Below, piece after piece: positions 7,356-32,773 of a stretch of 64,000 bases of DNA. A program made the position numbers and the translations under genes. The notes under the pieces are model-generated. The model saw only the letters and a program-made list of their open reading frames with translations, ran no database searches and was not told the DNA's origin. The DNA lies in assembly GCA_041663425.1 (NCBI GenBank), contig JBAYMS010000003.1:1959-65958 (forward strand), written 5' to 3'. Position 1 is the stretch's first letter. Each line of letters starts with the position of its first letter. This DNA comes from Candidatus Omnitrophota bacterium (GTDB lineage Bacteria; Omnitrophota; Gorgyraeia; 2-01-FULL-45-10).

Positions 7356-7360
7356 AATAG

Positions 7361-7367: not shown

Positions 7368-7420
7368 TTTATATCATTGGGTAAAAAGGTGCCTTTTCTT
7401 TTATTTACAGAACGTGCATA

Positions 7421-7449: not shown

Positions 7450-7492
7450 TGCTTGGAAACTAACTATTTTATACTTTAATTGGCTGGCCTCA

Positions 7493-7564
7493 CTCTCGCG
7501 AGCCGCTTGGCGGAAGCTGCGAGAGCGAAGACCAACCTACTACCGGGGTGGCACCACGGTAGTA
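7493..7564. terminator. Two intergenic stem-loops between the gene A stop and the gene 3 promoter. They may be a terminator or other RNA structure.
   Basis: CTCTCGCGAGC..(12-nt loop)..GCTGCGAGAG at 7493-7525. TACTACCG-(11-nt loop)-CGGTAGTA at 7538-7564, followed by TTTT on the plus strand. On the minus-strand transcript no clean U-tract follows either stem. Confidence 0.3.
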
Positions 7565-7577
7565 TTTTAAGCCCATA

Positions 7578-10500
7578 TTATGCCGCGCTGCTGAGCAGCA
7601 GCACCGCGTTTCTATAACTCGATATCTCCTTTTCGATGCCTATTGGCAGTATCGGCCTAAATTTGAACCTACCGCTCATCTTCAGGTCGTCTATTACGCC
7701 AGGAGGTAGTTCTTTTTCGCCACTCACTACCAAGCTGACCAGTGTGGCATAAGAGTGTATAGCGGCAAGCACCTTAGTGCCGTTTATATCTATCTCGTCC
7801 AGTTCCAGGAATTTTTCTTCGCCTGGTTTTTCGTTTTCTTTGAGCAGCTCACCCCTGGCAGCACGGACACCTATATACTTACGCTCTGTATTCATCTGCT
7901 TCGCTATGCCGCCCATCATGTCATCGTATGAAGCATAGTCATGCTTATTGATGAACCTGACCCTGCCTACGTCCTTGATAGAGCCGCTTGAATTCAATAT
8001 AGCAAAAGCCTCTGTCTCTGTCTTGACTTCGTCTCCGCCGATAATATAGGTAGTAATGCCCTGTTCAGCGGCTTCGTTGATATTGTCTACTGTGTAAGGA
8101 TCTGACAAGTTGGATTTTTCACTTGTAACTATAACCACAGGGCGATCTTCAGACAGCATGTCCTTAACGCGCGGCACGCTCTTATAATATGCAGCCTGCA
8201 CCTTTTCATCAGATTTTCGTTCTGCTATAAGCCGGCGCAGCTTAGCAAGCCTCTCCTGTCTTTCAAGCATCTCGGTCCTATTCGGCCTGGCGCTAAGATA
8301 GTTGAGTATCGCCTGTTCGAGATCAACTTTTCCAAGGTCAGGGAGAAGGGCTTTAATAGTTGCGTCTATTTCATTTCGTATGGCATCATCTATAGAGGTC
8401 ATCCTGAGTATAATTCCGTAATCATTGGCCAGTTTCATCGTAGCGGCTTCCCTGACAATCCTTTCATTTTCCTCCGGACTAAAACCTATCGTCTCGTCAA
8501 TATATATGCCTGCCTGGTTATTTTTTAATTCCAATTCTTTAGGCAAATCAACCCTTCGGACTTCTATATTGAGCCCGGAGCGTCTGAAAGATTCTCTCAG
8601 CCCTTCTTCCTGCTCAGGCGTGACTGATTTCGGCACACCAATAACCAGCCCTGCGGCAGGCCTTTCTTTCAGAGCCTGGACTTCGCCTATCAATCCATTA
8701 ATAGCATACCTGTCATCTGATTCATTTATATACCGATTAAATATCTCCGCCAGGATCTTCACCCTATCGCCCTTTGAAGCAATAAGCGGCGTTTTCGCCG
8801 ATCGCTCTCTATTATGCGATGCTTCAATATCTAAGCGGAAATTAAGCATCTCTCCCAATATGATCGCTAATGCAACAACATCATCCTGAGGCATGGCGGC
8901 ACGCCCTTCTCTCTGCCTTTTTACACTTATATAGTTGTTACGCAGAATACTTTTACGATAACTGTCAGCGGCTACTTCGTCGGTTATCGGAGACACAGAA
9001 TCGTTATCGATGAAAACAACCCGGTCCGCACCATGCAAGCTTTCGCCCGGAGAAATCACTATACCCGCGGGATTTATGTCACCCGCTACACAGCCATTAT
9101 CAAAATAGGTCTTCTTATATGCATCTAATACCGCCAGAGCCAGATCAATGAATTTATCGTCGTTACCTTCCTCCTGATGTAAAACAAAATTTTTAGATAC
9201 GTAATTCCACAGACTTTCCCCTTTTACGTATTCAGTGATAAGAGCGTCTCCGTAAAACTCGCCCTCCAACGTCGTCCCCCTGACGTCAAGCAGCCCAACA
9301 AGGTTAGGTATAGATGAGTTTATATTATTGCGGTTTATCTTATTGGCAAGAATCTCCGCCTGCCGCCTTATAATAAAATCTGAATTCTTCGAATCCAGCG
9401 CGGCCTTTACTACATAATCATGCCCGTTTTCCAGGACAACACCGTTAGCAAGTTTTTGCTCAGGCCCTTCATATCTGAAACGCATCGCACCCCATTGTTT
9501 AACAAGCCTGTTTGCCATAGAAAGCTTTTCCTGGAATTTGAAATGCTCGTTAAAAAATCCATGGTCTAATTGAACTATCGGCGAAACCGCACCGGACGGC
9601 CTGCCGGAATATGCAGCGCCTAGCACAGCCACACCATAAAGTGAAATGAAATTTATCAGATGCGGCAAAATAACAATATCTTTTGGTATAGGTATTACAA
9701 AATAAGCCAGCAGAATGCCTATAACAGTTATGGATAATATAACCGGAAGAGCAGCGGATCCCGCTCTAGAGTATCCTCCATGATCGCCTTGTCTCAGACT
9801 ATCTTTTGCGCCCGATATTATCTTCCTTATGATCTCTGATATCTGACCGCTCGTTATATGAAACACAGAGACCATCTCTTTAGGCGTCTGACCCTGCGCA
9901 GCACGCTCAAATATCTCCCTGTTCCTGGGGCTTATTTTTAATTCGTCAAAAATTTGCTGCAATCTGACCTTTCGATTAACGAATTCTGCTTCGCGCACAG
10001 CTTCGTCGCCTGGCCTGTCCTCAAGGTGTTCCATGTCTATAATATTAGAACTGACTGATTCTCTGGCGATCCTTCTCCTCTCAGTCACATTATGATTTCT
10101 CATTTCGGTATGTATGATTTTTGCCGCCCATGTGGAACGCTGGAATCCCAGTTCGGGTTTAAATGTAATCGCAGCCTTCCAGAGCCCTCCGATAGAGTTG
10201 TTGCTGTTTCCATGAAGCCCGGCGGAGACCAATTTATCCTCACTAAGATATGGGTATTTCTTTTTATAGTATTGCGCTATTTGCCTGACCAGATATTCAT
10301 TATCCCTGATAAAGTCACTTATCCCTTCCTCGTTTCCTGACTGGAAAGAATGGTCTCGCGCAGCACGTATCATCATGAGCGCACCGAGGCCTATTGCACT
10401 ATTTGCAAAATATGGCGCCGCGGCGGTAAAATATCCCGAGGCGAAATAGATGTAATCACTTAAGAACTGCGCGAAACCAAATTGAGCGATAGCGGCAAGA

Positions 10501-13500
10501 TATGGCATGCTAACAAATACTAGTCCTGTGAGAAGAGCAAGCGCTATAACCATAGCCGTAGAGACAAACCCGGCACGGTTCGCTTCAGATAACGCAGTGA
10601 CGGCGAACTCGTAACCGCGGGAGGCGGAGTCACGTAATCCATTCATAGCAGAGTTTCTCAAGTCCTGATCGATGGCGCTGTTTTTAATAATAGATAATAA
10701 TGCGGTGACGGCGGGTGCGTGGCCGCGGGAGGCGGAGTCAGACAATATATCTATAGTAAATCTTCTTGAGTCCTGATCAATGACACTGTTTTCAACAATA
10801 GATAATAATGTAGGTGTAAGATCATTAAGTGCGGTGACGGCGGGTGCGTGGCCGCGGGAGGCGGAGTCAGACAATCCACCTATAGCGCCGATTCTTAAGC
10901 GCCAACCGATGGCACTGTTTTCAACAATAGATAATAATGTAGGTGTAAGATCATTAAGTGCGGTGACGGCGGGTGCGTGGCCGCGGGAGGCGGAATTCCA
11001 CAATATGCTTATAGCAAATTTTCTCAAGTCCTGATCGATGGCGCTGTTTTCAACAATAGACGACAACGCAGCGATGGCGGGCACGTAACCGCGGGAGGCG
11101 GAGTCATGCAATCCATTCATAGCAGAGTTTCTCAAGTCCTGATCGATGGCGCTGTTTTTAATAATAGATAATAACGTAGGTGTAAGATTATTAAGTGCTG
11201 TGACGGCGAGTTCTTGACCGCGGGAGGCGGAGTCATGTAATGCATTCATAGCAGAGATCCTTAAGCCCGGATCGATAGTATTATTTTCAACAATAGACAC
11301 ACCATCTATCGCAATATTCTTTAGTTCTTTCGCTGGCTTATCATCCAAACCAATCCTCATCTTATCTATAAACTCATCGTTCCATCCCTGTTTTTTAATA
11401 TGCTCATCGTACGACAATCCTAAACCTTGCCCACGATAAAATTTCTCTACTGCCTCATCCTGTTCGTCAGCCATATCCGCCGGAAGAGGAGGAGTATTTC
11501 CGGTGTCAGAAAAAAGCTGCAGGAACGCTATAATGCCTTCCGGGTTGTTCCCAAAAAGATGGTTTATATGTCTGCGCAGCAGCACAGAATGATCCGGCGT
11601 GTATATAGCATGTTGATATAAAGGAAGCCCCGTATGAATAATGTTGAACTCCTGCGGCCGCGTCAAGGCATTATGCACTATAGCCATAGCTACTGCTATA
11701 GTAAGCTGCATTCTCCCAAAATATTCATCTTGTCCCAATTTTATGGGGGCAGGCGCAAAAGTATTCAGGGCCACATTATGTGTTCTTCCATATTTAGTAT
11801 CAAAGTAGAACGGGGTTTCATTTTTTTCCGTATAGCTTGAACCTAAAAGCGCTATTTCATCAAAAGTAAGTATGCTATGGCTGTATGCAAATTTACTCCA
11901 GCAATACTCCATAGATTTACCTATAAAAGTCAGCGCCTTAAGTGAATCATCGCTAAATTTCTTTTTCGAACCGACGTGTATGTGCAAACCCTGCGATAGC
12001 ATCAATCCGTTACGATTACGATCGACATATTCCATTATTTTCCTGAGACCTGAATTTAACCTGTCGAACCCTTCTCTGTTGTTTGGTAACCCACCCTCAC
12101 CCGTAGTTACTTCTATATTAGCCCCGTCTCTTTTGATTACCCAGCCCTGATCTTTTAAACCTTCCTCGGTAGCAAATCGATCTAGCCCATCATAAAGAAC
12201 ATTCGTTGCCGCAATGTTCTTGTCATTTATATTATTACTGTTAAGAAGAGCCATTTCGATCTCTATGCCGAATGTCATATCTTTAGGCATGTTCGGCACG
12301 CCGTCTTTGTGATATCGATCAAGTCGTTTTACTATATTAAGGTAAACCACATACCACTCTTCCGAGAGAGAAGCAAGATCCAGTGCTACGATATTTATTA
12401 TGCGCCTCGAGAATTCATCATCCTGAGTCTTAAATGCATCTATAGAACCAAGGATCATCTCAAGCTCTTTTATGTCATATTTAAAAGAAACGTTAACTTT
12501 AATTAAAAGACGGTATGCCTTACTATGCGCTTCTTTATTCCCGGATTTAGTTAAAATAAGCAATGCTGCTTTTTTCAGAGCTTTCTCATCGTCCACACTT
12601 AAAACTATGCCCGTTTCATCTATAAAGAAAATATTATCAAGATGCGCTTTAAGCTCTCCCTTCTCCTCAAGGGCAATAACATCGGTTACGCTGGTTATAT
12701 TGCGAAGGGCTGATAAGGATACCTGACAATCTCTTTTTATTTCATCAAGCTTTTTCTGTTTCGTAGGAGTTAAAACGATAACCGTTTTATCCGGTAAGAG
12801 CAAATTATTTTTCATCACATATTCAGGTTTATAAATTTTATCTAGAGCGGGTGTTTTTGTAGCTACCATCGTGAGCACGCCGATGCCAATCCCGTTATTC
12901 GCAAGATACGGTAAGACGGAGAAAATATCATTCGAGGCAAAATAGATGTAATCGCTTAAGAACTGCGCGAAACCTAATTGAGCTATCGGTATTATGAAAT
13001 ATGCAATAAATAGGCCGGCAACAATAGAGGCCGTTAAAACAGGTATTAGCGTAAACCCTTTTTGATCAGATGGAGGAGTTTCGGGCGTTGCCTGGCCGGC
13101 AATATCTTCAACTTTCTTCAGGCGCTTGTCAAACGAATCAAACTGTTCCGTTAAAACTTTAAGCCTTTCGCCCATATCCGTAACAGCATTCTGCAAGGTA
13201 ACCAGCAAAGTAGGTTTTGCAGCATTTTCCGCATCCAGCATGGCACGTATACGCTTAAGGCTCGTGCCCAACATGCCCATTTCCCATCCTTTACCTGTTG
13301 CCGGAAATTCTAGTAATGGCTGCAGCAGTTTATAAAGCTCGTCGGAGACTGCAAGGCTCACCGGTGCCTTGACCCTATGGTCAGGATGAATAGAAAGCAT
13401 AATAGTCCGGTGCCATTTTTTATATTCTTCATTATCCAATACCTGCCCTGACACTATTTCCATTATCAGTTTTTTAGCGCCTTCGATATCGCCGTCAAGG

Positions 13501-16500
13501 ATAAGGACTGTATTTTTATCCAGGTTAAAACTGCGGAGCCGCTCGATAAAATCTTCAAATAATGGTGACGAAGAAACCTTTTTAATCGAAACGGCCGATG
13601 CATCTTTTGCCGCCACTACCTTCTGCCCTTCTACAGGTGCCCTCTCTACTGATTTGGGCTTTGGAGCTACTTCTTCCGCGGGCTTAAATACCACTTCCTC
13701 GCGAGGTGCTTCTTCAGAAATAACGCCCTCGTCCCTAGTCTCAGTTTCAGAAGCTGTGCCTGCCCTTCGCTGCGCATCCATTTCAGCGAACTCCCTCCGA
13801 GCTATTTCCTGCGCTGCAGCGTCTTTAGCCTTATCCTCGCTATCCTGCCTGATCCGCTCTCTTCTCTCAGCTGCTGCTCTGGCAGCACGCTCCGTCTTTG
13901 CCTGGTCCGATATATCCTCGCCCTGTGAAATTTCCTGCTCTACGCCCACCCAATACCTTCCGATAACTCCAAATAAAGCCAGGCCTCTTTCTTCCGCTAT
14001 GTTGTTAAGGTTGGACATTACTAAACGGCTTTCGGGCTTCGCAGAGTCCCCATAAAGCGCCTTAAGAATTACCGTAAATAATATGACGACCTTCAATTCT
14101 TCAGCTGCAAAAACATCAAGTCCAGCCTCTTTGGCCAATCTGCTTATATTTAATTTTTCGCGCGCGATCAATTTGTTGAATTCCTTGAGCACTTCGGGCA
14201 TTATTAAAATAGAATGCATAAATAAGAGCCACTCGGAAAGCTCACTCATACCGCTTTCAGTCTTTTTATCTCTTCGGGCATATGAAATCTTTGTATTCTT
14301 TTTTATACGTTCCGCATTATTGCGTATCTTGTCTTTAAGATCTTTAAGCGACTTTGATTTTTTTATGTTTTCGATAAGCTCTTCTTTGAGTAACGTCGCC
14401 CCTACAACATAACCCTGATCGGATGAAAGGCGCGTCATATATTCTTCCTGGATGGCACGATCGGATTGACCGGCAGCTTTTGCTCCTGCAGGGCCCTGTA
14501 ATAAAAGCGGCCTCTGCTTCATGCTTTCGGTAAGCAGAGCGGCAAAACCTCCGCCTCCTTCAGCTTGAGACGCAGGGCCTGTAAGCAACGCCGCCGTGGC
14601 CTGCCCAAGCGCGGATTGCGCATTGCTAGGACTTGCACTCCTCAACTCTGATGCTGTAATGGCCGATACGTCAAGCGTCTTAAGTGTTTCAATAAATGCG
14701 CGCCTGGCCACAGAGCCATCGATCCTATCAGTAACATTATCGGTGTCGATCCCTGCACTATTATAGATAAGCTGAACTTTCTTTGCCCCATATCCGCTAT
14801 CGCCTGGTCCGGAAGAATTCAGATAAGACGCCATGACTTCGGACAAAGTTCTGCCGGCATTTATCGAAAGGATATTTCTGGCAGTTTCCGCATCTATCCC
14901 TTTGTCTGCGTATTGGACCGACTGGCTATAGCACACAACTGCATAAGCACTCAGAAGCCTTTCAAGCAGCCTTGCTATGCTATTTCTGTCTACACCATCC
15001 AGAGTATTCGCAAGGTCATCTCTATATAAAGTCCACGAAGATGACATATCCCCACCGTGTTCAGTGCCGTATGTTAATAGCGCCTTTATAAGTTTATGAT
15101 CTTCTTTGGAGGGTTTTTTAATTTCAGGTTTATGGTCAGTAGCTGCAATGGCAGGTTTTTCAACGGGTCCGATAGCTTCGCCCGCGACCTCTTCTGCTTC
15201 TTCCGCCGTTATGGCAAGTGTCGTCCTGGCGATGATCTCTCCGGCTATTTTTTTGGCTTGCGGAATCAGCGCTTTAGCTTTCTGCGGATCAGTCTCACTC
15301 TTCTGAACCATCTGGAGCATTCCGGCCCTTATCAATAAACGCGTAATCTGCCTGGAATCTGCGCTGCGGGCAGAGGCAGGTAAAAGTATCCTTGAGCCTG
15401 AAGTATAAAAATTATTATCTTCGGCGAAACCGATAGAGGCCCCGGACACAGAATTTTTAATATCGGACACATATTTATAATAAGAACTTTTAGTATTAAA
15501 CCGCCTCATCGCTTCTTCGAATATCTTTTTCGCCGCAGCAATTTTTTCTTCATCGCTGCTACCACTACCCAAAATCACAGATGCAACCGCACCGAATCCG
15601 CCGATAAAAATCACTTTGGCCATAACAGGCGATATAAAATAAGCAGCTCCAGCAAGAACGGTTATAAGAATAAGCCCAATAACTCCCCTTCCTCTGAAAA
15701 GAGCCCTATGTTTTTTATTCAAGTCCTCGGCGGCTATACGGCAAGCTTTTATAATAGCACCGCACTCTTTCGCTTCCGCCATAACCAATGCCTTTTCATC
15801 GGGGTCGCCTATCCTGGAGATTAAAGCCTTCACCCTACCCCTGTCACCGAATAAAATCTCCATATCGGCCAGGCTGTCTAAAAGGCTTAATGTCTGCGGT
15901 ATGTGCTGGAAGGTGTCAAAAAACTTCAAATAATCGGAAGCAGAATCTTTAAAACTGCCTATAGCATCTTTTAGTAATTCTACATTTACGCTTTCACCTT
16001 CTTTTACGCTGCGCTCAACATTTTTAACGTCATCCATTCCTTCTCTATAGCAACCTATTGCCTTATCAAGAATTTCCATTTCTTTGAAAGACGGCCTTTC
16101 TGAGAAATATTTTTCCGATTTAGCCTCCGTGCCAGGGTAGGTCTTTCCGAATATCCAACCGCGAACAAGTTCTACTAATTTTGACAACATCCCGCTTCTT
16201 AAATAAGTCATACCTACGGCAGCCACACCGAAAGAAGCAAACAAACTGCTTCCGACAAGCCATGAAGGCAATGCACCGGAGGCAAAATAAAGATAGCTAT
16301 GCAGAAATTCCGAAGGGCCTATTATCGATATTCCAAAAAATACTGATATGGTAAGCGCTGTAATAAGACCAACCATCGCGAGAGCTGCTGACACTTCAAT
16401 CGTTGTAAAACCTGAGCGTTTATTATGGGTCTCGATCTTATTTACAAATTTTGCTTTAAGCATAATTTCATCGAATTCCTTCAATCTGGACAAGCACAAG

Positions 16501-19500
16501 TCTCTCCAGTCCTTATCCTTAAGATCAGCGATAAGCTCTTCTATTTCGGCATACTTATTACTCCTGAGAGGCAGCATCATATTGATAAAGTGAGACCCAA
16601 GAGAAATTCGTCCTTCTCTGAGTCTTTTTAAAATCCCAATAAATTTTGAAAAATCTACTATAGCCTCAGATAAAATTGCCGGATCCGGATGTTGCGCGTT
16701 TTTAAAGCCTTCCAGGCAAAGCACGCCTTCCTGATAATATTCATTAGCCTCGTCCTTAAGCTTTGCGGCCTCTTCATCAGATAAAGCCTTGCCGCGCCGC
16801 AGCACCATAGACACAACTTGAAAAATCAAAGCAACCCCTAAGATAGCGATAATAGCCACTGCTACTACCGGGACAAAATAACACGCAGCTAAAAATATTA
16901 TGCCAAATATACCTATGGTCTTAGCAGTCCTTAAATCCCCTCCTTCTTCACCATCATCCATATTGTCTTTGCCAAAATATATCAGACCGGCAACGCCCAT
17001 AATAGGAATGCCGGCCTTATCCGGAGAAGCAAAAAATTTCATCGCCTTATTTATAAGATCCTGAACCTGTGGCCAATTAAAGAATGCATAAACTGCACCC
17101 AGGCCGATGGCTGTAATGAGGACACTGCGCAGCATATGCGTCTTTGCTTTGTCGTGCCGGACCACCGGTGCCGAACGTGAGAATAAGGATAGGAAGGCTA
17201 TCGCATCGGTTAAAATGAACACTGCGAGCACCAATGCCAAGCTGGTACCAGGATTTTGTTTAAAAAACTCAATACCTGCATTTATAGCATCATTTACTCC
17301 TTTAGCAAATGGACTCCCGGCTGCGGCAAGTAACAACATCGGTGCGTGGAGCTGACGAGGCGCTGCGGCTTTGTCTGATAAAAATTTCTCACGCTGGACT
17401 AACGTGGATTCCCACATACTAACTGATTCGGCCTGCTTTACATTTTTCTCCGATTTCAGATAATCCATATTAGCTATATGATGAATATTTGTGGTAAGCA
17501 CAAATTCTAGAAGATTCAGTAAAATCGCGATAATACCAAAGGGCGTATTGATCAAGGCAGGATTGGCCAGGATTTCTGAAAAATCAAAAGGCGCTACGGC
17601 CAGCGAGGCCAGAACATTAAAAGCAAATATCTTGAATACTGATTTCGTCGGGGGCGCTCTTATGCCTCCGACTTCGATAGAATGCGCTGCGTAGAATATA
17701 GCCCAAGAAACAAATATCGCTCCTATAGCACCGCCGAAGTAATTCATCAATGTAAATGCCTGCGTAAGCGCAAAGAACCCGAGCTGTTCCCAGAAAGCCT
17801 GATAGTGCTCAGTAAGCCCCAGCCATTTAAGCGGCGTCTTCTCCGCAGACCTTAAGAATGCCCGCACCATAGGTATCATCCCCGCGGCAGGAGTTTTATT
17901 ATTTAAAATATTCGCAAGTCTTTCCGTTTCGGCCGTTACCTCTGATATCCTCTTTTCAGTGCCTTCCGGCAGGCCGGAATATTTCATAAAGAAACCCGAA
18001 ATATCTTTTTGCAGCTGCCCGGGCTCTTTTTCTCTTTCGATTTTACGATGTGATAAAATTTTCTCTACGGCCATCATAGCACCGCAGGCCAAACCGAAAG
18101 CAAAACAGAGGGCAACAGCTCCTCCGCCGAAGGCAAAAAGGCTTCCTAAAGCAATGGTGATATAATCATATTCCCAATGCATCGCTACTATCGCGACAAA
18201 TGTCCCCACACCTGCAATAGCCCCGGCTGTCCCGGCAATAGATATGAGGATCTTTTCTTTGAAATCGAAGAAAGGCTCGTTAATAAATGCAGGACCTGCG
18301 ACAGGCGCTTTTAAACTATCTATTTTTTCACTATTTTCGATAGCCGTATTATAAAGTTTAAGGCTTCTGTAAAGATGAGTGAGTATTTTTGCCCTGTCTT
18401 TATTTAAAGTGAATACCGGATCGCCTGTATTGCTGTCACGCCCCGACCTGTAGAAAGGCCAGTCCTGGTCCCTGAATGGCCTTCCGGCCGGATCAAATTC
18501 AGAGTTGAACAAACTTACTTCCGGAAGCAGCATCTTTCTGTCATGGCTGTATCCGACAAAAACCCTGACATTTATATCAACGTTATTTTTTCTGCCAAAA
18601 TACTCAAGGACTGATTTAACATATAAAATAGTTTTACCGGTAGCGGCCATATCCATCAAAAGAATATCCTTATGGTCAGTTATACCGCTGCGCCTCATCT
18701 GTTCAAATAGCAGCTCCGCCTCTTTTGCGAGAGCAGGATCGCTATTCCACTGTTTTATCATTTCATCTTTAAAATAAGCACTGATCTCATTAACTAATTC
18801 CGGGTGATAGCTGGCATAAAAAGCATCCGTCTTCTTTGAAGGCATCCTGCCGCCGCGGCCTATTACCGCATTGCTTAGCTTTTGTATAGAATGCGCTTTC
18901 GCTTTTTCGGTAGCACGCTGCACCATTTCAATACCGCTATCAGGCACATAATCACTGACAATAGCATTATTATTCATACCCGGCTGATACACCAAAGCGC
19001 CTGCGGCGGAATAACCGTTCGCCATACCGTAGTATTTCATAAATTCAGCGGCAGTTATAGCGTCACGGGCGAGGAAAACCGGAAATTCACCATGCTTAAT
19101 ATCAGCGGCATTGAAAAACGAAGGCAGATTTGATATAAGCCTGTCCAGGTGTGTCATATCCATATATAAAGACTGGCGGTGATATATAAGCTGGTAGCGG
19201 AAATATTCTATGGGATCCAGCATATTATATTTTCTGGATATATCACTTACCGGCACACCGCTTTCTATAAGTTTATTGTTGGCTTTTTCCAGGATAGCGA
19301 ATATCTCTTCGTCAGTGAAAGCCCTTGGCTTGTTATTATTATCACGCGGCATCTGGTCTTTAGGTAATGCCCATATGATATTATTGAGATCTTCCAATGT
19401 AAAAGTTTTATGTCTGGCGAATGCGGCTATCTTAGCGGCTATTTTTTCGTATAGGATAGATGCCACGGCAGACGGCTCAACACCATCAGATGCAGACGCA

Positions 19501-22500
19501 TAAGGATCTTTTATTTTCTTTGTCAACTCACGGTCTTCCGCACCAAACACGTGCCATTGCAGCGCCCTAAGAAGATAGTGTTCTTCCACGTGCTTATCCG
19601 GATTCGATCCGGCTTTTAACATCATTATCTCAAGTTCATCCGGGGCTGTTTCCTTAAGATAATTTTTTATAGCTAAAACAAGCCCGGGATTCAGCATAAT
19701 AGCTGAATGGGCTATCTCGTGGAATAGGGCTACAGGATTGTCAGATATTGTTTTTGAAATGACTATAAGATCTGGCGTAGCAAACGAAATGACCGGATCG
19801 CCGGGATGAGAAAGCAGTATAACGTTTCCTTTAAAAGATTTAAGATACGTATCTATAATGGCATTCGCGACAGGATTGTTGTGTTTTTTAATGTCATCTA
19901 AAATGGTTTTTATATTCCTTGGCGGAGCACGACCGACAAAATCTGCCTTACTCAGATCTATAACATTACCCGTCTCCCTATCCTTTAATAAACCTGTCAG
20001 CCTATTTTCGGGTGCATTGTATTGCGGGACAGCACCTTCCACTGGATCGTACTTTCCTATCATACCTACCTGTGAACCCTCAATTATCGTGCCTTTGCCA
20101 TCATGGAAAAACTGACATTGCGGATATGCCTCGGCCTTTTCAAAAATAGCCCGCTCATGCTTTGCCCAGGCGGATACTTCTCTATCGCGCGCATTAATAA
20201 AAGTATTTGCGCTCATTATGTCTATGGCCGCGCCCATAGCGAGTCCTTCTTTCCTGGCTTTAGCTCTGCCGATGAGGACATTTCTGCGCTTCCAACCTTC
20301 TTTACGTGCAAGAAAGCCCACGTCTCCCATATCATTAGACCTGACCCATGACCTTACAACGGCCTTCCACTGAGATCCGATAGATGAGTCAACTGTCTTG
20401 ACGCTGAAAAGACCGTTGTTCAATTCTTCTTCTTCGAGGAAATGATCACCCAGTCTTAGTATATTGCGCACTCTTCTGGCATTTGCCCCAATGGGCCTTC
20501 TGATGAATTCTATTATCGCGCTTCTGTTCTTTTCAAGATCCTGCCCCTTATATAGATCCGCAAGTCGTATACTAACCATATCTTTTCCACTGAATTCCTG
20601 CTTATCAAAATTTGGGGTTATGAGCGCTGCGCGCAGCAAACCCGCCATCTCCTCGCGCCGCTCGGTGGAAATCCCTTCATCCCTTCCTTCTTCCACAGCC
20701 ATCAAATAGGCATGAAGTTTTGAATATTCTAAAAGAGTGTCAGAGACTAAGTCTACCTGTTTTGAATATGGCGTTACAACAGCTATATCGTCAGGGGCAA
20801 GATTGCGCTCATTCAAAAGCCAATTGACCCATGTAACCACCCTGCTGACTTCACCTATATTAACTATTCCTCTGTCAGCAGTATCTTTTCTGGCCCTTTC
20901 CGAAGAGACAATTTTTTCCTGATATATCCTTTTGTCCGTCAAACCTTGCCCATCACTGATCGCATAATGATCCCTTACCAATGTCCCGGTCTCTTCACGA
21001 CCGGCTTTCAGCCTACCATTGTAAAAATAGTTCTCTTCGTCTACTACTAAAGTACCCGACCGGCGCTGTATGTCAAGGAAACGGAAGCTGGGCCTTGTCA
21101 CTTTGAATACCGTATTATCGTAAAGATCCAGGGATTTTTCGAGAAGTGAAATTTTAAACCTTTCCACCACATCCGTCTCAAACACTTCGGCTAACGGCCT
21201 GTTCTCCCCGACTTCACTCCATCCTACGATCTCGCTCTGTCCGCTTAAGTCACGCAGTGCGGCTGCAATATCTTCTTTGCTGATACCATATGCCGGCAGC
21301 TGATCCTGGTCGCCTACGAATATGGCTTTTTTAACATCGCTGAGATTGGTAAACATCCAAAGCGCCCATAAAGACTCCGGAACCGTCGCCCTGCTAGACT
21401 CATCCACTATAACATAGTCCGTCTTCATGAGCTCCTGTCTATCTCTTACATCACGATCTCCGAAAAATCCATTTACAGTTCCGCAGACAAGATTAGGTGC
21501 TTTTTTCTGTATAATATTATCCAGAGCGGCAGCCTTATTCTCCCAGTCACCTAATATCTGAGGATCTACGGCATCCTCATTATTACCCACTCTGGCAAAA
21601 GGGATCTGTTTCACTCCTGACCGCTCCTGTTCACTGAACAGCCCATCTATATCCTTTAGCACCTTTAAAATGTTATCCAATGCGTCATTCTGCTGGGACA
21701 ATAACCTTAGCCTTTTCTTCTGGTTTTCGACTATCAGTTTTGCAAGAAGCGTTATGACCATGGTCTTTCCTGTGCCGCCCGGGCCCTGTATGAGCGTGAT
21801 GGGAATTTCCTCGCATAAACCGTCTATCAAGGCCTCTTTCTGTTCGGAATCAAGAGGATACTTAAGCATTCTTTCCAGCGGTTCTATAAGATCGCGCTCT
21901 ATGGCATTTCTTTTTTCAGCTATGGAGGATGCTCTGGCTTTATCAGGCACATCGATCAAAATCCCGAGAGATCTGTCTGCAATAGGCCGGCCTGTTGTAG
22001 CTAAACCGAAGGATTCGCCTTCACCTATAGACTGCTTCGTTGAGACTTTCAATCTTCCTATAATAGCAGCGAGCATTTCGCACTGTCTCTGCCAGACATT
22101 ATCCTTTACCATGACCAGTTTGCCGCCTTCGTTCAGCGCGTAGGACCACTGCATAAGCAGCTGATCATAACCTGCCCTTACCTTAGGCTGCTCAAATTTA
22201 ATGGTATCCTCTCCTACATAACGCACTCTAAAAAACGGCTGCAGCTCTTTCTGGTTTGATTTAGCAGGGCGGACTTTAAATGAATCGCCGCGCCTTACAA
22301 AATTTGCAATATCTATTTTTTGACCTGTCGTAGGATGTTTAAAGCCGGATACGTAAAGGAAGCCATTTCTCACACTAACCTGTTCAAATACGAATTCCGC
22401 GGCAGCGTCCTGGGATATGTGCATACCCTGCCTCGTCTTCTTATCCCTCTCGGCCTCCGACAGCATCATTGCCTTAGCGATAAAATAATCGTCCATAAGT

Positions 22501-25500
22501 TCCGGCAGCCATATATTCGCCGCAGCCTGTGAAATTATTTTCTGAGCTTTTTCAAGATGCGCTTTTGCCGGAGAGAAATCTCCGAGTTCAAATATCGCGC
22601 GCGCCATATCAAGAGCTGCCTTATAAGCTTTTTCTCTGGCGGCCTTCTCCTTTTTGTCGATCTTACCGGCCTTATTAAATTCATCAATAGCTTTTTGGGT
22701 AAGCAATTCAAAAACGGCCGTCTTGTCCGCTTCTTCCGGATACTGCAGAAGGAGCCTTGATTCCTTCAGCACCGTTTCAACATCCTGTGCATCCCTGATA
22801 TTTTTTGTATGTTCAGCTATATTATCCCTACACTCCTCTATCCTCTGGATCAGCCTCGTAAGAGCGGGGCTATTTTCGTCTATCTGCACGCCAAGGACAG
22901 GCTTAACCCTGCATATATTAGCCACTATAGCAGAAGCTTCTCCATATCTGCGTTCGGCGATTTTCGACTGTGCTTCCGCCAGCAGTCCCTGAACCTTTAA
23001 AAGACGCTCTTCTGCAATTTTCTGCTTCCGCTCTTCCATTATGCTGCCCAAAGCGCTTAAGGCTTCGTCTATATTCCTTCCATCTATAGAAGGATCGCGA
23101 AGGGCTTCGCCCGCATAGATACACCAGCCGGCATCCTCTCCGGCAATTTTAGCTGCACGATCCCCTTGGTTCCTACCCAGAAGTGCCTGTGCGGTAACGG
23201 AAGCTCCTTCGAAATTACTGTCTTTATATTGTTTTTCAAATTTCTCCCATTGCGCAACAGCAGCCAGTATTTCATCTCTTAATGGACCGAGAATACTTGC
23301 AGCATCAGCTCTGGTATTCATAAGTTCCGCGGCATTTTTATACAACGCCGATTTATATAACGAGTCTACGGTAGACTTATACGCATCCGCGCTAAGTTCT
23401 TTTTTTATAGACGAAAGAAAAACACGCATCTTATCTTTTAATTCGCCTTTTACTTTTTCCGAATGGGATAGATCTGACAACGCTATATATACTTTATTCC
23501 CTTTTTCATTCAATCCTATTTCGGCAGCAAATTCGGCTATGCGCATCACCCTAGCGACATCTTCCTTATTATCTATTTTTATCTCTCCACTGGCTATTTT
23601 TTCTAAGTACCCTATTATTCTGGAGAAATCTAAAGAACCGGAAAGCACGGACAAAATATTGCATATGATATGCATTGAATCCTGCGACAAGGGCTCATCG
23701 GACTCATTCAGGAGAAGATCCGTCAGCATATCTACTATTTTCTGGGCCCACTCGTCTGGCAGTAATTTTATGAGCATCGGATAAGAAAATCTGCTCGAAC
23801 CATCCGCCCTTCTGCTGTTTACTACGTTCCTTCTATTGCCATATTCTTTCCCTTCAAAGGCTATCGCATCCTTCAAACATTTTTCTGCTGCCCGAACGTC
23901 CCCTTTCGCATTAAAAGCAATCGCGCCCACTACGTTCATCTGAAAAGCCGTTTCATATCCTTCGTTTTTAAGCGCCATATCCACAGATTCGTTAAGCACT
24001 TCTACGGCATCATCATTGCGGCCTGCAAAAACATCCATAAGCATATGCTGCAAAGTAATATTTTCGCGCCTTTTTTCGGAAACAACTTTATTTATAAACC
24101 CTCCGGATATTTTAGACATAGCCTCGGCCTCACTAAACCTGCCCTCACTTTTATACATATGTGCCAGATTCTGGAGTAAAAGCATATTAAGTAAATTTAC
24201 TTCGTCGTTTTCGGTAGGATAATATTGCTGATTGACGGCAATGACTTCTGCTAATTTTTTAAAGTTATCCCGGTCTTCCAGAATATAAGCCCAAAACGCC
24301 ATGGGGACGCTCTCTGACATCATATTATTTTCTACTATAGGGGGGGTGTAAACAGTTACTGCATTTCTGATAGCTGCATAAATATCAGGATTATGAATAG
24401 CCGCAACGAATGCCGCATTTATATCTATTCTGGATATAGCGTCAAGAACATCCCTTGCCGGCGACACAACCGTTCCGTCTTCCTCAGTCCAGCCATGGTT
24501 TTTTACCATTTTACTTATATTGTCCGACCACACACCCCAGATGTAATCAGCTTTCTCAATATCGGCTTTCTCTCCTAAATACTGGAGAGCCATAGCATAG
24601 CTAGTCAATACATAAAGATCGTCGGCTGAAATCCTTACAACCCCCTTACTTCTTGCAAAATCACGTAAAAAAGAAGTCCGCTCAAAGAACTTAACTGCCC
24701 GCCTATACATACCGGCATTAGAGGCGATTCTACCCAGCCTAGTATATAGTCTGTTAGCAATTCTAATAAGCTTTGAGTCGGTGGCCTTATCCAAAGTATC
24801 AAAGAAAGAACGAAATTCTGCGCGGCTCTTTTTATCTCTCTGTTTTGCAGTTTTTTGAACCTCATAGTTATTATTTATATATTCGAACATCGCTTCCAGC
24901 CTATTTTCAAACTCACGCTTTTTGGGCATATCCCATGAAATTATCTTGAAATGCTCCAGCACTACATCTAACAAATGGTCATGCTTTAGAGGCGTAAGAC
25001 CTATTATCCCGGAAGCTTTGACAATCCTTTGACCCGATTCATCCTGAAGGCATAACACTGAGACAGGGTCATCATTTTTTTCGGTAAAATACCTGCTGAA
25101 AATATCGGAGTATTCTTTCGCTATTAAAGCATAAGTCTCTTTTAAGCCGCGCCCACAGAAGTTGGATATTACAAAAACATTATCTAATTTCTTATCCGCA
25201 AGAGGATCAGCCGCAAGCTCTTTCCTTAAAAATTCATTTAAAGAGTTTGATAGCGGGATATTGCCGTAATGCTGTATGAGAGATTTTACCCAAAGCATTG
25301 CATCGCTACCGTCTCTCTCATTAAAAGCCGCTGCTATAACCTTAATCTTGGATAATATCTCCGGAGTAAGCTCCCTCTCTCTAAGTTTGTCATCCAGCAT
25401 TTTACGCATTCCTCTGGAAGGGTCGGATTTAAATTGCAGCCTGAAATTTATCATTGCAGCAAACGCATCGTCAGGGACAGCTCCCCAGCCATCTATGTCA

Positions 25501-28500
25501 CTTATTGTGTTATCAGCCTTATCCATAAGCAATTTACGCTGCTCGTTGGACAACCCCATGAAAATATCAAATGGTAATATAACACCTCCGGAAAGAAAAT
25601 AATTTTTATCATGTGTATGCATCCTTTTAAATAAATTTATAGCGGCAGCATCAGCTGCATCGGCCTTGCCAAGATGCGAAAGGATGTCTATATAGTATGG
25701 CAAAGCGCGTATGATCTGTTCGTCACTGCCTTTATCAAGAACAGCCGCACATCTTTTTTCCAGCGCTTCACTGAAATTACCTTTATTGCATTCCAGAGAA
25801 ATGCGGAACATCTCGCGTTCGGCATCCTGCTCTGCTGACGGCATCATCTTTGTATCGGACATTGCGATCTCCGCTTCCTCAAAAGTCTCCGACACCATCT
25901 TAAAAAGTTCGGCAGCGCGTGCATCATCTTTACCGCGTAATGAACAGGCTAATTTGATTGCGGCATTACAATACAAAGTGTCAATACGGCCATTGGCGGG
26001 ATAGTCAGCTCTCAATCTTTCCAGAAGGTCAAATGCCTTTGACACGTTTTTATCATCACCCATCATAAGGTCTGCCTCAGCGCATCTTTTAAGCATTTCC
26101 AGCTTGGTATAATTTCTCATACTATCATTTATCATATTTTTAGCGCACATCTCATCTGCGATCGCTACATATTTAGCGGCTATCTTTTTTATCTTGTCGG
26201 GGATGTCTTCTTCTGCGAATAAATATTGTCTGACGTAGATCTTCAGTAAAGCTTGGGCGGAATAAATACTTTCTACCGGGGGCGGCCCTTCCCTGTAGAC
26301 TATAAATTCCAGGATGATCCTGGAAGTCTCCCAGTCTCCCAACATATCTGACGCCATAGCCAATACTGCCAGCCATCCGGTCTTGGGAGATGGTTCCGAA
26401 ATTTTTAACAACAGATATTCATAGGCTAATTTAGCTAACTTCTCATAGTTCTTTTGTTCGACATACACATCTTTCATAGCCGCATAAATCTCCTCCAAAT
26501 CAGCCTTCATCTCACCGGTTCTTTTGCAAAATTCCAAAGCCTTAAGACCATACTCTTCTGCTTTCGCCAACAATATGCCAACTATTTCCGGCATCGTTCC
26601 TTTTTTAGCAATATTTAGAAGAATGCTCGGAAATAATACATAAAAAGCATCGCCTTTCCCCTGCTTACCCTCCAAGGCGTTGCCTTTTTTTGCCATTTGG
26701 CTAACTGCATAATCAAGCAATTCCTCAACCATTACCACTCTGCCTTCAGCCACAACACGGCGTAACATCACGGCAACTTCTTCTTCGAGTTCCGCCTGCC
26801 TCTGTGGTTTTATAGCATCATTGGCAATATCTGCAAAAAGTTTTGAAACAATCCGGTCCGCCTCCTGTTTGTCAGAGGCAGGCAATCCCCTACCACCACC
26901 TAAAGCAGCATATAGTAATATTTTTTTATTCTTAATGACATTTATCACGGCTACGATAACATTTACGCCTAGGTGCACAGCCATCGACACGAGGACTGCG
27001 AGATGATAATTTGACGAGAAGTAGCTTGCTGCAATTATTCCTGCAACACTTACTATGAATGGAGCGGTAAATACCCTGAAGATATAAGAACTGTAGTCTT
27101 TCGTTATTTCTGATATAGCTCTGCCTTTTATCGGAGGAGCGCGCTCATTAAATATGTGCAGTATGGTAAATATAGCCGCGGAGATTGAAAGCGCTGCAAA
27201 AGAATATCCTCCAGTAAACGCCATAGGCAGCCACACTTTAGCAGCTTCCTCAAATACAGGCGCATGAGCAAATGGTGAGTATCCCGAGCCGAATATGCCT
27301 GTAAGAGATCCGTATCTCGCTTTTACAGCATCCTTTGGAATAGTTAGTTCGGCTACAGGTACGAAACCAGCTTCCGGCGCCTTAGCCCTTGATGCAAAAC
27401 CGTTTTCAAACCCTTTTTGCCAATGAGCCATTAAATTTTCCACGGTAAGCCTTTTGCCAGCCTGCTCTATAAAATAGTTTTGAATATCTATGCTTGCATC
27501 CTGAATGTCCTCTTCTTCATTCCTCTCGATAAGTTTAGGAATGTAAGTCTTTGCAAGTTCTTCCGCCTCCTTCTGTGTATTCATAGTCACGAATCCGCCC
27601 AGATCAAAGAAGCAAACCTTTATGCGTTTATTTTTTTCCTGCGCCGATGGATCCAAACTAACCCCTGCATTAACAAGAAGCACGTCATGATTAAATATCC
27701 CGGCTTCCCACATGTCTTCAAGTGCTCTGAAATAATCATCAATAATAGTCTTTGCTGTTTCGACGTCTTCGCTACTGCCTTTAGAAAGAGTTTCCAGTAT
27801 ACCGTTTTCTACAAAACGTGACCCCACCTTCATATACTCCGCATCAAGCCCTACTATAGGCACTATTTCATCTTCTACATACACAGTACTCGGCGGCGAC
27901 CATATCATACGGTCACGGAAACGCGCGGGAACTTTCGGCCTTATATCGTCGATGACACGATTGGGTAAAGTCACTCCTTCAAGCTTGGTTGTAGGTACAA
28001 ACCTCGTCCCGAGATTATTAATAGCCGTCTGCGCACTAACCAGGCTCAGCTGTGCAACCGGGACATGAACTATAAATCCTCTGCAGTGATAAACATAACA
28101 AGGCGTTTCATCATTCGACCGTGGCCTGCTGATAAGCTCCCAGTCATTGTTTGCGAGTTCTTTATGTAAATCGGCTTTGACAGGTTGGCCTTCCCCAGTC
28201 ACACCTGCCATACCCACCGGGAAATGGGTGCTGGTTTTTTTCGAAAGCCACTGAGAGATTTTAACATTATAGAATGCATGGCCTAGAATGCCTGAAAATA
28301 CGGAGAGAGTCGTAGCAGGATAAACCGGCAGGAATAAAAATGGCACAATATTTATAACCCGCAAAGCTGCGCCTAGCAATGTTATTATATTTATCATATC
28401 CGGATGTGATGGTGAATACACAGGTCTGCCATCCTCTGTAATTATATAAACACCACGCCAATGCGCTGCCTGAAACAGAAAGATGCTTAGCAGGGCACCG

Positions 28501-32745: not shown

Positions 32746-32773
32746 ATTATATCATATAATACTAACTTGTCAA
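32746..32773 (-). promoter_or_regulatory. Consensus sigma-70 promoter for gene A (TTGACA-16 nt-TATAAT)
   Basis: Minus strand reads TTGACAAGTTAGTATTATATGATATAAT. The -35 element is at 32773-32768 and the -10 at 32751-32746. It lies in the 198-bp AT-rich spacer about 85 nt upstream of the gene A ATG. A weak AAAGGAAAA lies about 12 nt upstream of the ATG. Confidence 0.55.

What the first reader, a model, noticed from the sequence alone, without database searches (positions are those of the whole stretch)
9790..10290. Sigma-70 family (region 2 + region 4) domain embedded inside a giant polytopic membrane protein
The match to sigma-70 region 2.2/2.3 and region 4 is striking (motifs and coordinates in the feature entry). 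A sigma domain tethered between TM hairpins would be a built-in membrane-sequestered sigma factor. That is analogous to anti-sigma/RIP-controlled ECF systems, but fused into one chain.
Basis: partly seen in the sequence, partly recalled or inferred. Interest (0 to 1): 0.85.

Follow-up and report, generated by a model that had tools for sequence, protein, structure and literature searches.

The report
Sigma-factor module inside giant membrane protein
A real but divergent RNA-polymerase sigma-factor domain sits in the middle of an 8,360-residue membrane protein of an uncultured Omnitrophota bacterium, anchored by membrane helices on both sides; this layout is not reported for any sigma factor in the literature I could search, and its function is untested.

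Summary

The module is membrane-tethered, but its sigma2 resembles phage and group 1-3 sigmas more than ECF sigmas, no anti-sigma domain was found, and the gene's own promoter is a perfect housekeeping consensus. The module is single-copy, has native codon usage, and is absent from related Omnitrophota giant genes, so it is variable cargo. Release by proteolysis is inferred, not shown. One-chain sigma/transmembrane fusions (IutY, ECF52, ECF36) and pro-sigmaK are precedents. Double tethering inside a giant mosaic protein is a new variant. Interest is moderate to high.

The parts
7578..32660 (-). Giant ORF A, 8,360 aa, which carries the module. It is a mosaic membrane protein with more than 20 hydrophobic segments, an SF1 helicase domain, TPRs, HEAT-like repeats and many unannotated stretches.
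   Evidence: ORF list and translation; hydropathy scan; Pfam and NCBIfam.
9813..10322 (-). Sigma-70-family module as delimited by the HMM (aa 7447-7616): sigma2, linker, sigma4.
   Evidence: TIGR02937 47.4 bits above the 42.9 cutoff, E 1.6e-12, model 3-159/165. PHROG_351 E 6.9e-9. Leave-one-out profile score 103 bits, within the relatives' range of 81-161.
10056..10331 (-). sigma2 domain (aa ~7444-7535; regions 2.1-2.4), including 'GLWKAAITFKPELGFQRSTWA'.
10188..10211 (-). Eight-residue Ser/Asn/Gly insertion 'GNSNNSIG' (aa 7484-7491) interrupting the region 2.2 core-binding helix.
   Evidence: Alignments A1 and A5. Shared only with the stand-alone sigma P0002 ('GNSKNTTG'). Modelled as a loop between H39-47 and H57-64.
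10005..10055 (-). Acidic, low-confidence linker between sigma2 and sigma4 (aa ~7536-7552). There is no sigma3 domain.
   Evidence: pLDDT <50 at model residues 103-115. A gap of ~50 columns against sigma3-bearing sigmas in A5.
9783..10004 (-). sigma4 domain with helix-turn-helix (aa ~7553-7626): 'ISPRNREIFERAAQGQTPKEMVSVFHITSGQISEIIRKI'.
10506..10568 (-). Strong transmembrane helix upstream of the module (aa 7365-7385), starting with 'RAG|FVSTAM'.
   Evidence: KD 2.46, Wimley-White -8.4.
10368..10433 (-). Weakly hydrophobic, Gly/Ala-rich putative second helix of the upstream hairpin (aa 7410-7431), ending 15 residues before sigma2. It is uncertain whether it crosses the membrane.
   Evidence: KD 1.37, Wimley-White -1.8, against a soluble-region minimum of -4.0. 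It is part of a hairpin module repeated three times in the protein and is a 76% nt repeat of 12864-12986.
9615..9749 (-). Tight transmembrane hairpin downstream (aa 7638-7658 and 7662-7682, with a 'PKD' turn), starting 14 residues after sigma4 with 'RAG|SAALPV'.
   Evidence: KD 2.67 and 2.08, Wimley-White -11.9 and -7.9.
8805..9320 (-). Possible protein-kinase-like domain just after the downstream hairpin (aa ~7781-7952). Sub-threshold only.
   Evidence: Pfam Pkinase 16.7 bits (GA 31.7), E 0.005. NCBIfam LanKC kinase part E 2e-4, PknB E 0.13. PDB phmmer found nothing. The single-sequence AF2 model failed at pLDDT 32.
32746..32773 (-). Promoter of giant gene A: TTGACA-16-(TG)TATAAT, 12/12 match to the housekeeping consensus.
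   Evidence: Consensus scan; sequence read.

Best explanation
The stretch encodes a genuine, compact two-domain sigma factor (sigma2, an acidic linker, sigma4; no sigma1.1 or sigma3). It belongs to a phage-type / group-3-like branch of the sigma-70 family. It has been incorporated as one variable cargo module into a mosaic giant membrane protein of a Candidatus Omnitrophota bacterium.

Its N-terminus lies about 15 residues after a hydrophobic hairpin-like element. Its C-terminus lies 14 residues before a tight transmembrane hairpin. The module is therefore made as part of the giant chain and held at the cytoplasmic face of the membrane.

I infer that in this doubly tethered state it is a pro-sigma: it cannot spread its two domains over RNA polymerase and promoter DNA productively. 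I also infer that proteolytic cuts next to or within the flanking membrane segments release a sigma of about 190-270 residues that redirects RNA polymerase. Candidate proteases are a site-2-type intramembrane protease, the Rce1/CPBP-like block in the same chain, or a prepilin-peptidase-type cut at the [K/R]xG|[F/S] motifs that start both flanking hairpins.

Shown: sigma identity, fold, lack of sigma3, the membrane helices on both sides, single ORF, native codon usage. Inferred: cytoplasmic orientation, inactivity while tethered, cleavage, protease identity, and the existence of target promoters.

For: Integrity: 10 of 11 near-invariant family positions are kept. The leave-one-out profile score of 103 bits lies inside the relatives' range of 81-161. 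'LVSAG' at the canonical Q-E core-binding positions is shared with the bona fide phage sigma P0007, so it is a subfamily trait and not decay.

Tethering: strong TM helices at 7365-83, 7638-56 and 7662-80. The hairpin loops carry 0-1 K/R while the flanks carry 2-3, which fits a cytoplasmic module.

One chain: there is no in-frame start codon between the upstream hydrophobic element and sigma2. The only ATGs (aa 7429/7430) lie inside that element and have no Shine-Dalgarno sequence. Codon usage, GC and GC3 are within about 1.2 SD of the gene.

Precedents for release: IutY is freed by Prc and RseP, and ECF48/52/53 and ECF36 are TM fusions (PMC8999054). SpoIVFB cleaves pro-sigmaK directly (PMC10202637). 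Cleavage of Omnitrophota giant proteins has been proposed but is unresolved (bioRxiv 10.1101/2023.11.21.568195).

Candidate in-chain protease: PF02517 Rce1-like, 19.0 bits against GA 22.4, E 0.0017, at aa 1798-1902.
Against: - No ortholog or paralog carrying the module was found, so conservation and purifying selection cannot be shown. A related gene in L003 skips the whole region.
- The second upstream helix is weak, so the module could lie on the opposite side of the membrane from its neighbours, or even outside the cell.
- No protease is established. The Rce1-like, prepilin-motif and kinase-like hits are all sub-threshold.
- Release would need two cuts, unlike any characterised system.
- The near-invariant F of 'FSTYA' is R, and region 2.2 carries an 8-residue insertion. 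Either could impair core binding or DNA melting.
- No target promoter is known. The two promoters visible in the window are housekeeping-type.
Confidence: 0.4

Rival explanations
1. The module works in place and is never released. As a membrane-anchored sigma (or simply an RNA-polymerase- or DNA-binding module) it recruits RNA polymerase or specific DNA to the membrane, like membrane-bound one-component transcription factors (ToxR, CadC). This could couple transcription, translation and membrane insertion of the giant genes.
For: The tethers of about 14-15 residues at each end are flexible and the flanking hairpins could diffuse apart. The fold and family residues are intact. Giant genes encode polytopic membrane proteins, so their loci are probably membrane-proximal during expression (inference). 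No protease is established.
Against: In holoenzyme structures sigma2 and sigma4 sit far apart and promoter DNA lies across them. Short tethers to a membrane plane at both ends would crowd that face (inference from the known holoenzyme architecture represented by the structures matched). No sigma is known to act while membrane-inserted. The promoters of giant genes A and C look housekeeping-type, so nothing points to a special sigma driving them.
Confidence: 0.2
2. The module is a passenger or mimic. It began as a formerly free-standing, probably phage-derived sigma gene that was swallowed by the growing mosaic ORF. It now either decays or serves as a protein-interaction module (a sigma mimic as in PhyR) and has no transcription function.
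For: Its nearest motif-sharing relative, P0007, is phage-encoded, next to portal, capsid and terminase genes. The module is not conserved in related Omnitrophota giant genes, whose middles are highly variable. This part of the gene grows by repeats and cassettes: a 76% nt hairpin repeat and HEAT-like tandem repeats. Deviations include the F-to-R change in 'FSTYA' and the insertion in region 2.2. Omnitrophota giant proteins are reported to carry dozens of unrelated cytoplasmic-type domains (bioRxiv 10.64898/2026.06.07.730766).
Confidence: 0.25
3. The module is not really embedded. Either it is a separate gene translated from an internal start, or the long ORF is an assembly or frameshift artefact that fuses neighbouring genes.
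For: In the related locus L002 the A-like gene is only about 1,900 aa and is followed by further ORFs, so gene boundaries differ between relatives. MAG assemblies can carry errors (general knowledge).
Against: There is a 25-kb frame without a single stop. No start codon with a ribosome-binding site precedes sigma2, and the next Met (aa 7520) would truncate sigma2. Composition is uniform. ORFs of 20 kb or more in Omnitrophota are reported to be transcribed as single mRNAs and detected by proteomics (cited in bioRxiv 10.1101/2023.11.21.568195).
Confidence: 0.05

Closest known systems
One-chain sigma/transmembrane fusions: IutY (ECF243, Pseudomonas putida), ECF48/52/53 (e.g. SCO4117), ECF36 with an N-terminal 3-4-TM extension (PMC8999054; PMC5411451)
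   Same: A sigma2-sigma4 sigma is covalently joined to membrane-spanning segments in one polypeptide. Activity is thought, and for IutY shown, to require proteolytic release (Prc and RseP).
   Different: Those proteins are a few hundred residues long and carry the sigma at one terminus. They have an anti-sigma or zinc-finger domain and an extracytoplasmic sensor, are tethered on one side only, and belong to ECF groups. Here the sigma is internal to an 8,360-aa chain and has TM helices on both sides. No anti-sigma domain was detected and sigma2 is not ECF-like.
pro-sigmaK / SpoIVFB of Bacillus subtilis (PMC10202637; PDB 8vjl)
   Different: Pro-sigmaK has only a short N-terminal pro-sequence, has a sigma3 domain, needs one cut and is a stand-alone protein. 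No SpoIVFB-like protease is identified here.
Compact free-standing phage-type sigma factors (PHROG_351; e.g. P0007 in a prophage, P0004, P0008, P0011-P0017)
   Same: These are the best sequence relatives, at 23-29% identity over the full length. They share the same sigma2+sigma4 layout without sigma3, and the motifs 'L[VI]SAG', 'GLWKA' and 'FKPELGFQ.ST.A'.
   Different: They are independent 164-187-aa proteins with no membrane segments. Only P0002, a 416-aa stand-alone chromosomal sigma, shares the region 2.2 insertion.
Omnitrophota giant genes (Archaeovorin and other classes; bioRxiv 10.1101/2023.11.21.568195 and 10.64898/2026.06.07.730766)
   Same: The phylum matches. The ORFs are 8-10 kaa or more, arranged in tandem, with many TM helices, TPR/HEAT scaffolding and divergent cytoplasmic-type domains. 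Neighbouring giant B has the hallmark SecA_DEAD domain. Whether the chains are cleaved is an open question.
   Different: Neither paper's main text mentions a sigma domain. Only one short supplementary file of the 2026 preprint was searchable, and none for the 2023 preprint. Giant A lacks SecA_DEAD and is below the 30-kaa class analysed there.
Kinase-activated ECF43 sigmas (EcfP/PknT, EcfK/PknS; PMC13147305)
   Same: The canonical acidic Q-E of region 2.2 is replaced by uncharged residues with Ser nearby, and a possibly kinase-like, membrane-anchored domain is the immediate neighbour.
   Different: The kinase assignment is sub-threshold and could not be confirmed structurally. The same S-A substitution occurs in the phage sigma P0007, which has no kinase nearby. 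This resemblance is weak.

Membership tests
Sigma-70 family | sigma2 domain (regions 2.1-2.4) homologous in sequence and fold | tested here: met
Sigma-70 family | sigma4 domain with a helix-turn-helix (regions 4.1-4.2) | tested here: met
Sigma-70 family | Binds RNA polymerase core and directs promoter-specific initiation | not testable with these tools
   This needs biochemistry. There is only indirect support, from conserved family positions.
ECF (group 4) sigma factors | Only sigma2 and sigma4, without sigma1.1 or sigma3 | tested here: met
   A5 shows a gap of about 50 columns where sigma3 lies in group 1/3 sigmas. The model has two domains and a short linker.
ECF (group 4) sigma factors | Sequence and structure closer to ECF sigmas than to groups 1-3 | tested here: not met
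ECF (group 4) sigma factors | Cognate anti-sigma factor or equivalent regulator encoded alongside | tested here: not met
   Pfam and NCBIfam found no anti-sigma domain in giant A. Divergent anti-sigma domains could escape detection. The window holds only giant genes.
ECF (group 4) sigma factors | Autoregulated from an ECF-type promoter | tested here: not met
   The gene's promoter is a 12/12 housekeeping consensus with an extended TG.
Sigma/anti-sigma hybrid proteins (IutY, ECF52 type) | N-terminal sigma followed by an anti-sigma domain, 1-2 TM helices and an extracytoplasmic sensor | tested here: not met
   The sigma is internal at aa 7447-7616 of 8,360, TM helices lie on both sides, and no anti-sigma domain was found.
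Omnitrophota giant membrane proteins | ORF of at least ~7,000 aa with numerous TM helices in an Omnitrophota genome | tested here: met
   The ORF is 8,360 aa with more than 20 hydrophobic segments. The N-terminal domain is 62-64% identical to Omnitrophota MAG loci.
Omnitrophota giant membrane proteins | Divergent SecA_DEAD domain (present in most giants of at least 30 kaa) | tested here: not met
   Absent from giant A. Present in neighbouring giant B at aa 4135-4301, E 1.9e-12.
Prepilin-type N-terminal cleavage/methylation motif (at the hairpin starts) | G|FxxxE motif followed by a hydrophobic helix, scoring above the TIGR02532 / PF07963 cutoffs | tested here: inconclusive
   TIGR02532 scores 14.6 and 11.9 bits (cutoff 16.3) at aa 5416 and 6534. 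N_methyl scores 13.2 (GA 21.2). The two hairpins flanking sigma give no hit. The relaxed motif occurs 10 times forward and once reversed in 56.8 kaa.

The most novel reading that the evidence does not exclude
Giant A is a membrane-anchored polyprotein. Its cargo modules are bounded by pilin-like hairpins that begin with prepilin-peptidase-type sites ([K/R]xG|[F/S], at aa 5416, 5658, 6534, 7362 and 7632). Cutting there, by the prepilin peptidase of the type-II-secretion-like loci that accompany Omnitrophota giant genes, would give defined products. One would be a ~270-residue sigma anchored by an N-terminal hairpin (F7365-G7634); another would be a membrane-anchored kinase-like protein. The sigma would then act at or from the membrane to switch on a programme, for example predation genes, once the giant protein has been inserted and processed. 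That would answer, for this protein, the open question of whether and where giant proteins are cleaved, and would add a new way of controlling a sigma factor.
Probability: 0.12. Interest if true: 0.9.

Novelty: new variant of a known kind. Interest (0 to 1): 0.6.

Why it matters
Sigma factors are normally small soluble proteins. The known membrane-linked ones are terminal fusions to an anti-sigma domain, or short pro-sequences. A well-preserved sigma module in the middle of an 8,360-residue polytopic protein, tethered on both sides, would extend the known ways of controlling a sigma factor.

It also bears on whether Omnitrophota giant proteins act as single chains or as polyproteins, which the literature states is an open question. 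A sigma has a clear biochemical readout: core binding and promoter-specific initiation, either as a free fragment or in the tethered form. This module is therefore a practical handle for testing whether, where and when a giant protein is cut. If the module is active, its regulon would point to what these giant genes are coordinated with in a phylum of uncultured, probably predatory or episymbiotic ultra-small bacteria.

Tried and rejected
1. It would have wrongly refuted the finding; NCBIfam, PHROGs and structure were needed.
2. PDB phmmer with the single sequence found nothing relevant.
3. The word-indexed 5.8-billion-protein search found no relative, either with the module or with the 1,021-aa C-terminal part.
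4. Both metagenome scans found no close relative, one with the module's own 8-mers and one with the module+P0002 alignment. It gave the phylum, but its loci reach only 10 kb downstream and contain no sigma module.
5. Recent foreign insertion is rejected. GC, GC3 and codon usage lie within about 1.2 SD of the gene. The local GC-skew anomaly belongs to the HEAT-like repeat block.
6. ECF43-like phospho-control of region 2.2 by the neighbouring kinase-like domain is weakened. The same S-A substitution occurs in the phage sigma P0007, the kinase hit is sub-threshold, PDB phmmer was empty and the single-sequence AlphaFold model failed at pLDDT 32.
8. An internal translation start is rejected: there is no start codon with a ribosome-binding site before sigma2.
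9. Of three CPBP/Rce1-like blocks seen by eye, only one reaches E 0.0017 (below GA), and the three are not significantly similar to each other.
10. The supplementary tables of the two giant-gene papers could not be searched usefully.
Full report
**1. What is at the coordinates**

The window contains three tandem minus-strand giant ORFs:
- giant B, 32859..63818, 10,319 aa;
- giant A, 7578..32660, 8,360 aa;
- giant C, which starts at about 7355 and runs off the window start with at least 2,457 aa.

The finding's 9790-10290 lies in frame in giant A and equals aa 7457-7624. The translated stretch reads like a sigma factor: '...NEYLVRQIAQYYKKKYPYLSEDKLVSAGLHGNSNNSIGGLWKAAITFKPELGFQRSTWAAKIIHTEM...LKISPRNREIFERAAQGQTPKEMVSVFHITSGQISEIIRKI...'.

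**2. Is it more than chance?**

Taken alone that would have looked like a refutation. Other evidence is decisive:

- NCBIfam's sigma-70-family model TIGR02937 matches end to end (model positions 3-159 of 165, aa 7447-7616) at 47.4 bits, above its curated cutoff of 42.9, E 1.6e-12. It is the only NCBIfam hit in the C-terminal 4,160 residues.
- PHROG_351 'RNA polymerase sigma factor' gives E 6.9e-9 over the whole module.
- An exhaustive phmmer search of 1.84 billion representatives gave 17 hits at E<=1e-3. The full-length ones are 164-187-aa proteins that pass Pfam's Sigma70_r2/r4 cutoffs themselves.
- A profile of the module plus ten of these hits SigF (1l0o_C, E 1.4e-28), SigA, RpoS and RpoD in the PDB. 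That profile is dominated by the bona fide sigmas, so it mainly shows what the relatives are.
- With an alignment of 22 database relatives, AlphaFold2 gives mean pLDDT 80.5. The model has two confident helical domains and a disordered linker.
- All 50 best Foldseek PDB matches are sigma factors.

**3. What kind of sigma**

The closest motif-sharing relative, P0007 ('LISAG...FKPELGFQFSTYA'), is encoded between portal/capsid and terminase genes of a prophage. P0002, a 416-aa chromosomal stand-alone sigma, is the only relative with the same 8-residue Ser/Asn/Gly insertion in the region 2.2 helix.

The module keeps 10 of 11 near-invariant family positions; the exception is R for the F of 'FSTYA'. 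It scores 103 bits against a profile built from the ten free-standing relatives alone, inside their own leave-one-out range of 81-161 bits. One caveat applies: those relatives were selected by similarity to the module. The uncharged 'S-A' at the canonical Q-E core-binding positions is shared with the phage sigma, so it is a subfamily trait and not decay.

**4. Membrane context**

A hydropathy scan finds more than 20 hydrophobic segments in giant A. Around the module:
- aa 7365-7383, Wimley-White octanol sum -8.4;
- aa 7638-7656, -11.9;
- aa 7662-7680, -7.9.

These three are clearly transmembrane. The putative second helix of the upstream element (7410-7431) scores only -1.8, within the range seen in soluble parts of the protein, whose minimum is -4.0.

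The stretch 7365-7431 holds a single charged residue. The hairpin loops hold 0-1 K/R and the flanks 2-3. This weakly favours a cytoplasmic module. The ends of the sigma domains lie about 15 and 14 residues from the hydrophobic segments.

So tethering on both sides is real. The statement that the module sits between two hairpins, and with it the module's orientation, remains uncertain.

**5. One chain, native, but not conserved**

No in-frame start codon with a ribosome-binding site lies between the upstream hydrophobic element and sigma2. GC, GC3 and synonymous codon usage of the module are within about 1.2 SD of the gene. The local GC-skew anomaly belongs to the adjacent HEAT-like tandem repeats.

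The organism is a Candidatus Omnitrophota. The ~580-aa N-terminal domain shared by giants A and C (35% identity to each other) has 62-64% identical counterparts in Omnitrophota MAGs. In these relatives only the N-terminal domain and a ~350-aa C-terminal domain are conserved. The middles differ, and one relative (L003) jumps from A's aa ~5993 to ~8004, skipping the sigma region.

The module is single-copy in the window and absent from the 11 fetched loci. No close relative was found in two metagenome scans or in the word-indexed protein searches. The hairpin preceding the module is a 76% nucleotide repeat of the hairpin 2.5 kb upstream in the gene.

Together these results say that the sigma module is lineage-specific cargo in a cassette-like, fast-evolving part of the gene.

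**6. How it most likely works**

Shown: a well-preserved sigma2-linker-sigma4 module, covalently flanked by membrane helices, in one ORF that is driven by a perfect housekeeping promoter (TTGACA-16-TG-TATAAT, 12/12).

Inferred: the module faces the cytoplasm, it is unproductive while both ends are pinned to the membrane, and it is released by proteolysis.

Precedents:
- IutY, a one-chain sigma/anti-sigma hybrid freed by Prc and RseP (PMC8999054);
- ECF48/52/53 and ECF36 TM fusions (PMC8999054);
- pro-sigmaK, cut directly by the intramembrane protease SpoIVFB (PMC10202637).

Cleavage of Omnitrophota giant proteins has been proposed, but the cleavage points are unknown (bioRxiv 10.1101/2023.11.21.568195).

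Candidate proteolytic elements seen here are all weak:
- an Rce1/CPBP-like block at aa 1798-1902 (PF02517, 19.0 bits against GA 22.4, E 0.0017);
- prepilin-peptidase-like [K/R]xG|[F/S] motifs that begin five hydrophobic helices between aa 5416 and 7632, including both elements flanking the sigma module. TIGR02532 scores 14.6 and 11.9 bits against a cutoff of 16.3. Whole-sequence shuffles expect about 0.25 such sites. The motif occurs 10 times forward and once reversed in 56.8 kaa, but several sites are paralogous copies.

I give the pro-sigma/release model 0.40, action in place at the membrane 0.20, passenger or mimic 0.25, and internal gene or artefact 0.05.

**7. Comparison with the known**

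The module is a member of the sigma-70 family: sigma2 and sigma4 were tested and met, while the activity is untestable here. It should not be filed as an ECF sigma. Three of four defining features tested were not met: affinity to ECF sigmas, a cognate anti-sigma factor, and an ECF-type autoregulated promoter. Nor is it an IutY/ECF52-type hybrid, because there is no anti-sigma domain, the position is internal, and it is tethered twice.

It belongs to the Omnitrophota giant-gene phenomenon. Neighbouring giant B carries the hallmark SecA_DEAD domain. Neither giant-gene paper mentions a sigma domain in its main text, and no paper in the searchable library links Omnitrophota giants to sigma factors. 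The supplements could not be checked properly.

**8. Verdict**

This is a new variant of a known kind (a membrane-tethered or pro-sigma factor) in a new context, a giant mosaic protein.

It is of real interest to specialists in sigma factors and giant proteins, and it offers a concrete assay for whether giant proteins are processed. Three limitations temper that: it is a single instance, no conservation could be shown, and no step of the proposed mechanism has been demonstrated. Interest 0.6.

Noticed in passing
window 1-7373, 7578-32660, 32859-63818 (all minus strand): The whole 64-kb window is three tandem giant genes: C (at least 2,457 aa, running off the window start), A (8,360 aa) and B (10,319 aa). 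A and C share a ~520-aa N-terminal domain at 35% identity, beginning with a signal/anchor-like helix and 'IINIQDAH'. B is unrelated to both.
   Followed up: partly
L001-L011 (Omnitrophota MAG loci), against giant A aa 1-580 and 8000-8360: The gene family has a conserved N-terminal domain (62-64% identity in L001-L003) and a conserved C-terminal domain (23-29% identity). In L003, L006, L008, L010 and L011 the C-terminal domain sits directly upstream of the next gene's N-terminal domain, so these genes form tandem arrays. The middles are unrelated. In L002 the A-like gene is only about 1,900 aa.
   Followed up: partly
window 9767-16415 (giant A aa 5416, 5658, 6534, 7362, 7632): Five hydrophobic helices begin with a prepilin-peptidase-like site: 'KRSG|FTTIEV', 'RG|VIGLIL', 'KG|FTLIPV', 'RAG|FVSTAM', 'RAG|SAALPV'. 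The first fits the full prepilin N-methylation pattern as I recall it. TIGR02532 scores 14.6 and 11.9 bits against a cutoff of 16.3. Giants B and C have none. These could mark polyprotein cleavage points.
   Followed up: partly
window 26955-27269 (aa 1798-1902); also 28266-28616 and 17475-17795: Hydrophobic blocks carry the motif order of CPBP/Rce1-type intramembrane proteases: FEE..., FxxxH, HxxxN. Only the first-listed block hits PF02517 (E 0.0017, 19.0 bits against GA 22.4). The block at 26955-27269 and the block at 17475-17795 share 'RAPPxK'. Pairwise similarity among the three is not significant.
   Followed up: partly
window 8805-9320 (aa ~7781-7952): A possible Ser/Thr-kinase-like domain lies directly after the hairpin that follows the sigma module. 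Hits are Pkinase E 0.005, LanKC kinase part E 2e-4 and PknB E 0.13, all below cutoffs. The single-sequence AlphaFold model was unusable at pLDDT 32.
   Followed up: partly
window 10594-11259 (aa ~7135-7355): HEAT-like repeats ('...SIVENSAIDQDLR...SASRGHAPAVTAL...') are visible as 65-78% identical DNA tandem repeats with strongly negative GC3 skew. They explain the GC-skew anomaly at 10001-12000.
   Followed up: yes
window 10368-10490 and 12864-12986: The second halves of two TM-hairpin modules are 76% identical at the DNA level ('FAQFLSDYIYFAS' loop). The hairpin module recurs at aa ~5414, ~6535 and ~7356, which suggests cassette-like duplication of linker hairpins.
   Followed up: partly
window 50916-51416 (giant B aa 4135-4301): A divergent SecA_DEAD domain (E 1.9e-12), the hallmark reported for Omnitrophota giant genes, plus TPR arrays at giant B aa ~8400-9120.
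   Followed up: no
window 20721-21854 (giant A aa 3603-3980): An SF1 (Upf1/IGHMBP2-like) helicase core, AAA_11 + AAA_12 (E 1e-19 and 5e-18), is embedded in giant A, preceded by TPR-like repeats at aa ~2600-2930.
   Followed up: no
window 19707-19721 (aa 4314-4318) and 13380-13388 (aa 6425-6427): Two isolated catalytic-looking motifs were seen by eye: HExxH ('ALFHEIAHSAIML') and a J-domain-like 'HPD' ('KKWHRTIMLSIHPDH'). Pfam found no supporting family hit for either segment.
   Followed up: partly
window 32746-32773 and 7421-7449 (minus strand): There are near-perfect housekeeping promoters upstream of giant A (TTGACA-16-TATAAT, 12/12, with TG) and giant C (TTGACT-17-TAGACT, with TG). A GC-rich inverted repeat without a T-run follows giant A's stop codon at ~7480-7560. 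Each giant gene therefore looks like its own transcription unit.
   Followed up: partly
P0001, P0005, P0006, P0009, P0010, P0016 (database hits): Several weak hits to the module's sigma4 part are proteins made of 4-6 tandem copies of a sigma4-like helix-turn-helix unit. For example, P0001 carries about four ~45-aa repeats of 'NAQIIARYRDGA.Y.EIA.EFH'. Their function is unknown.
   Followed up: no
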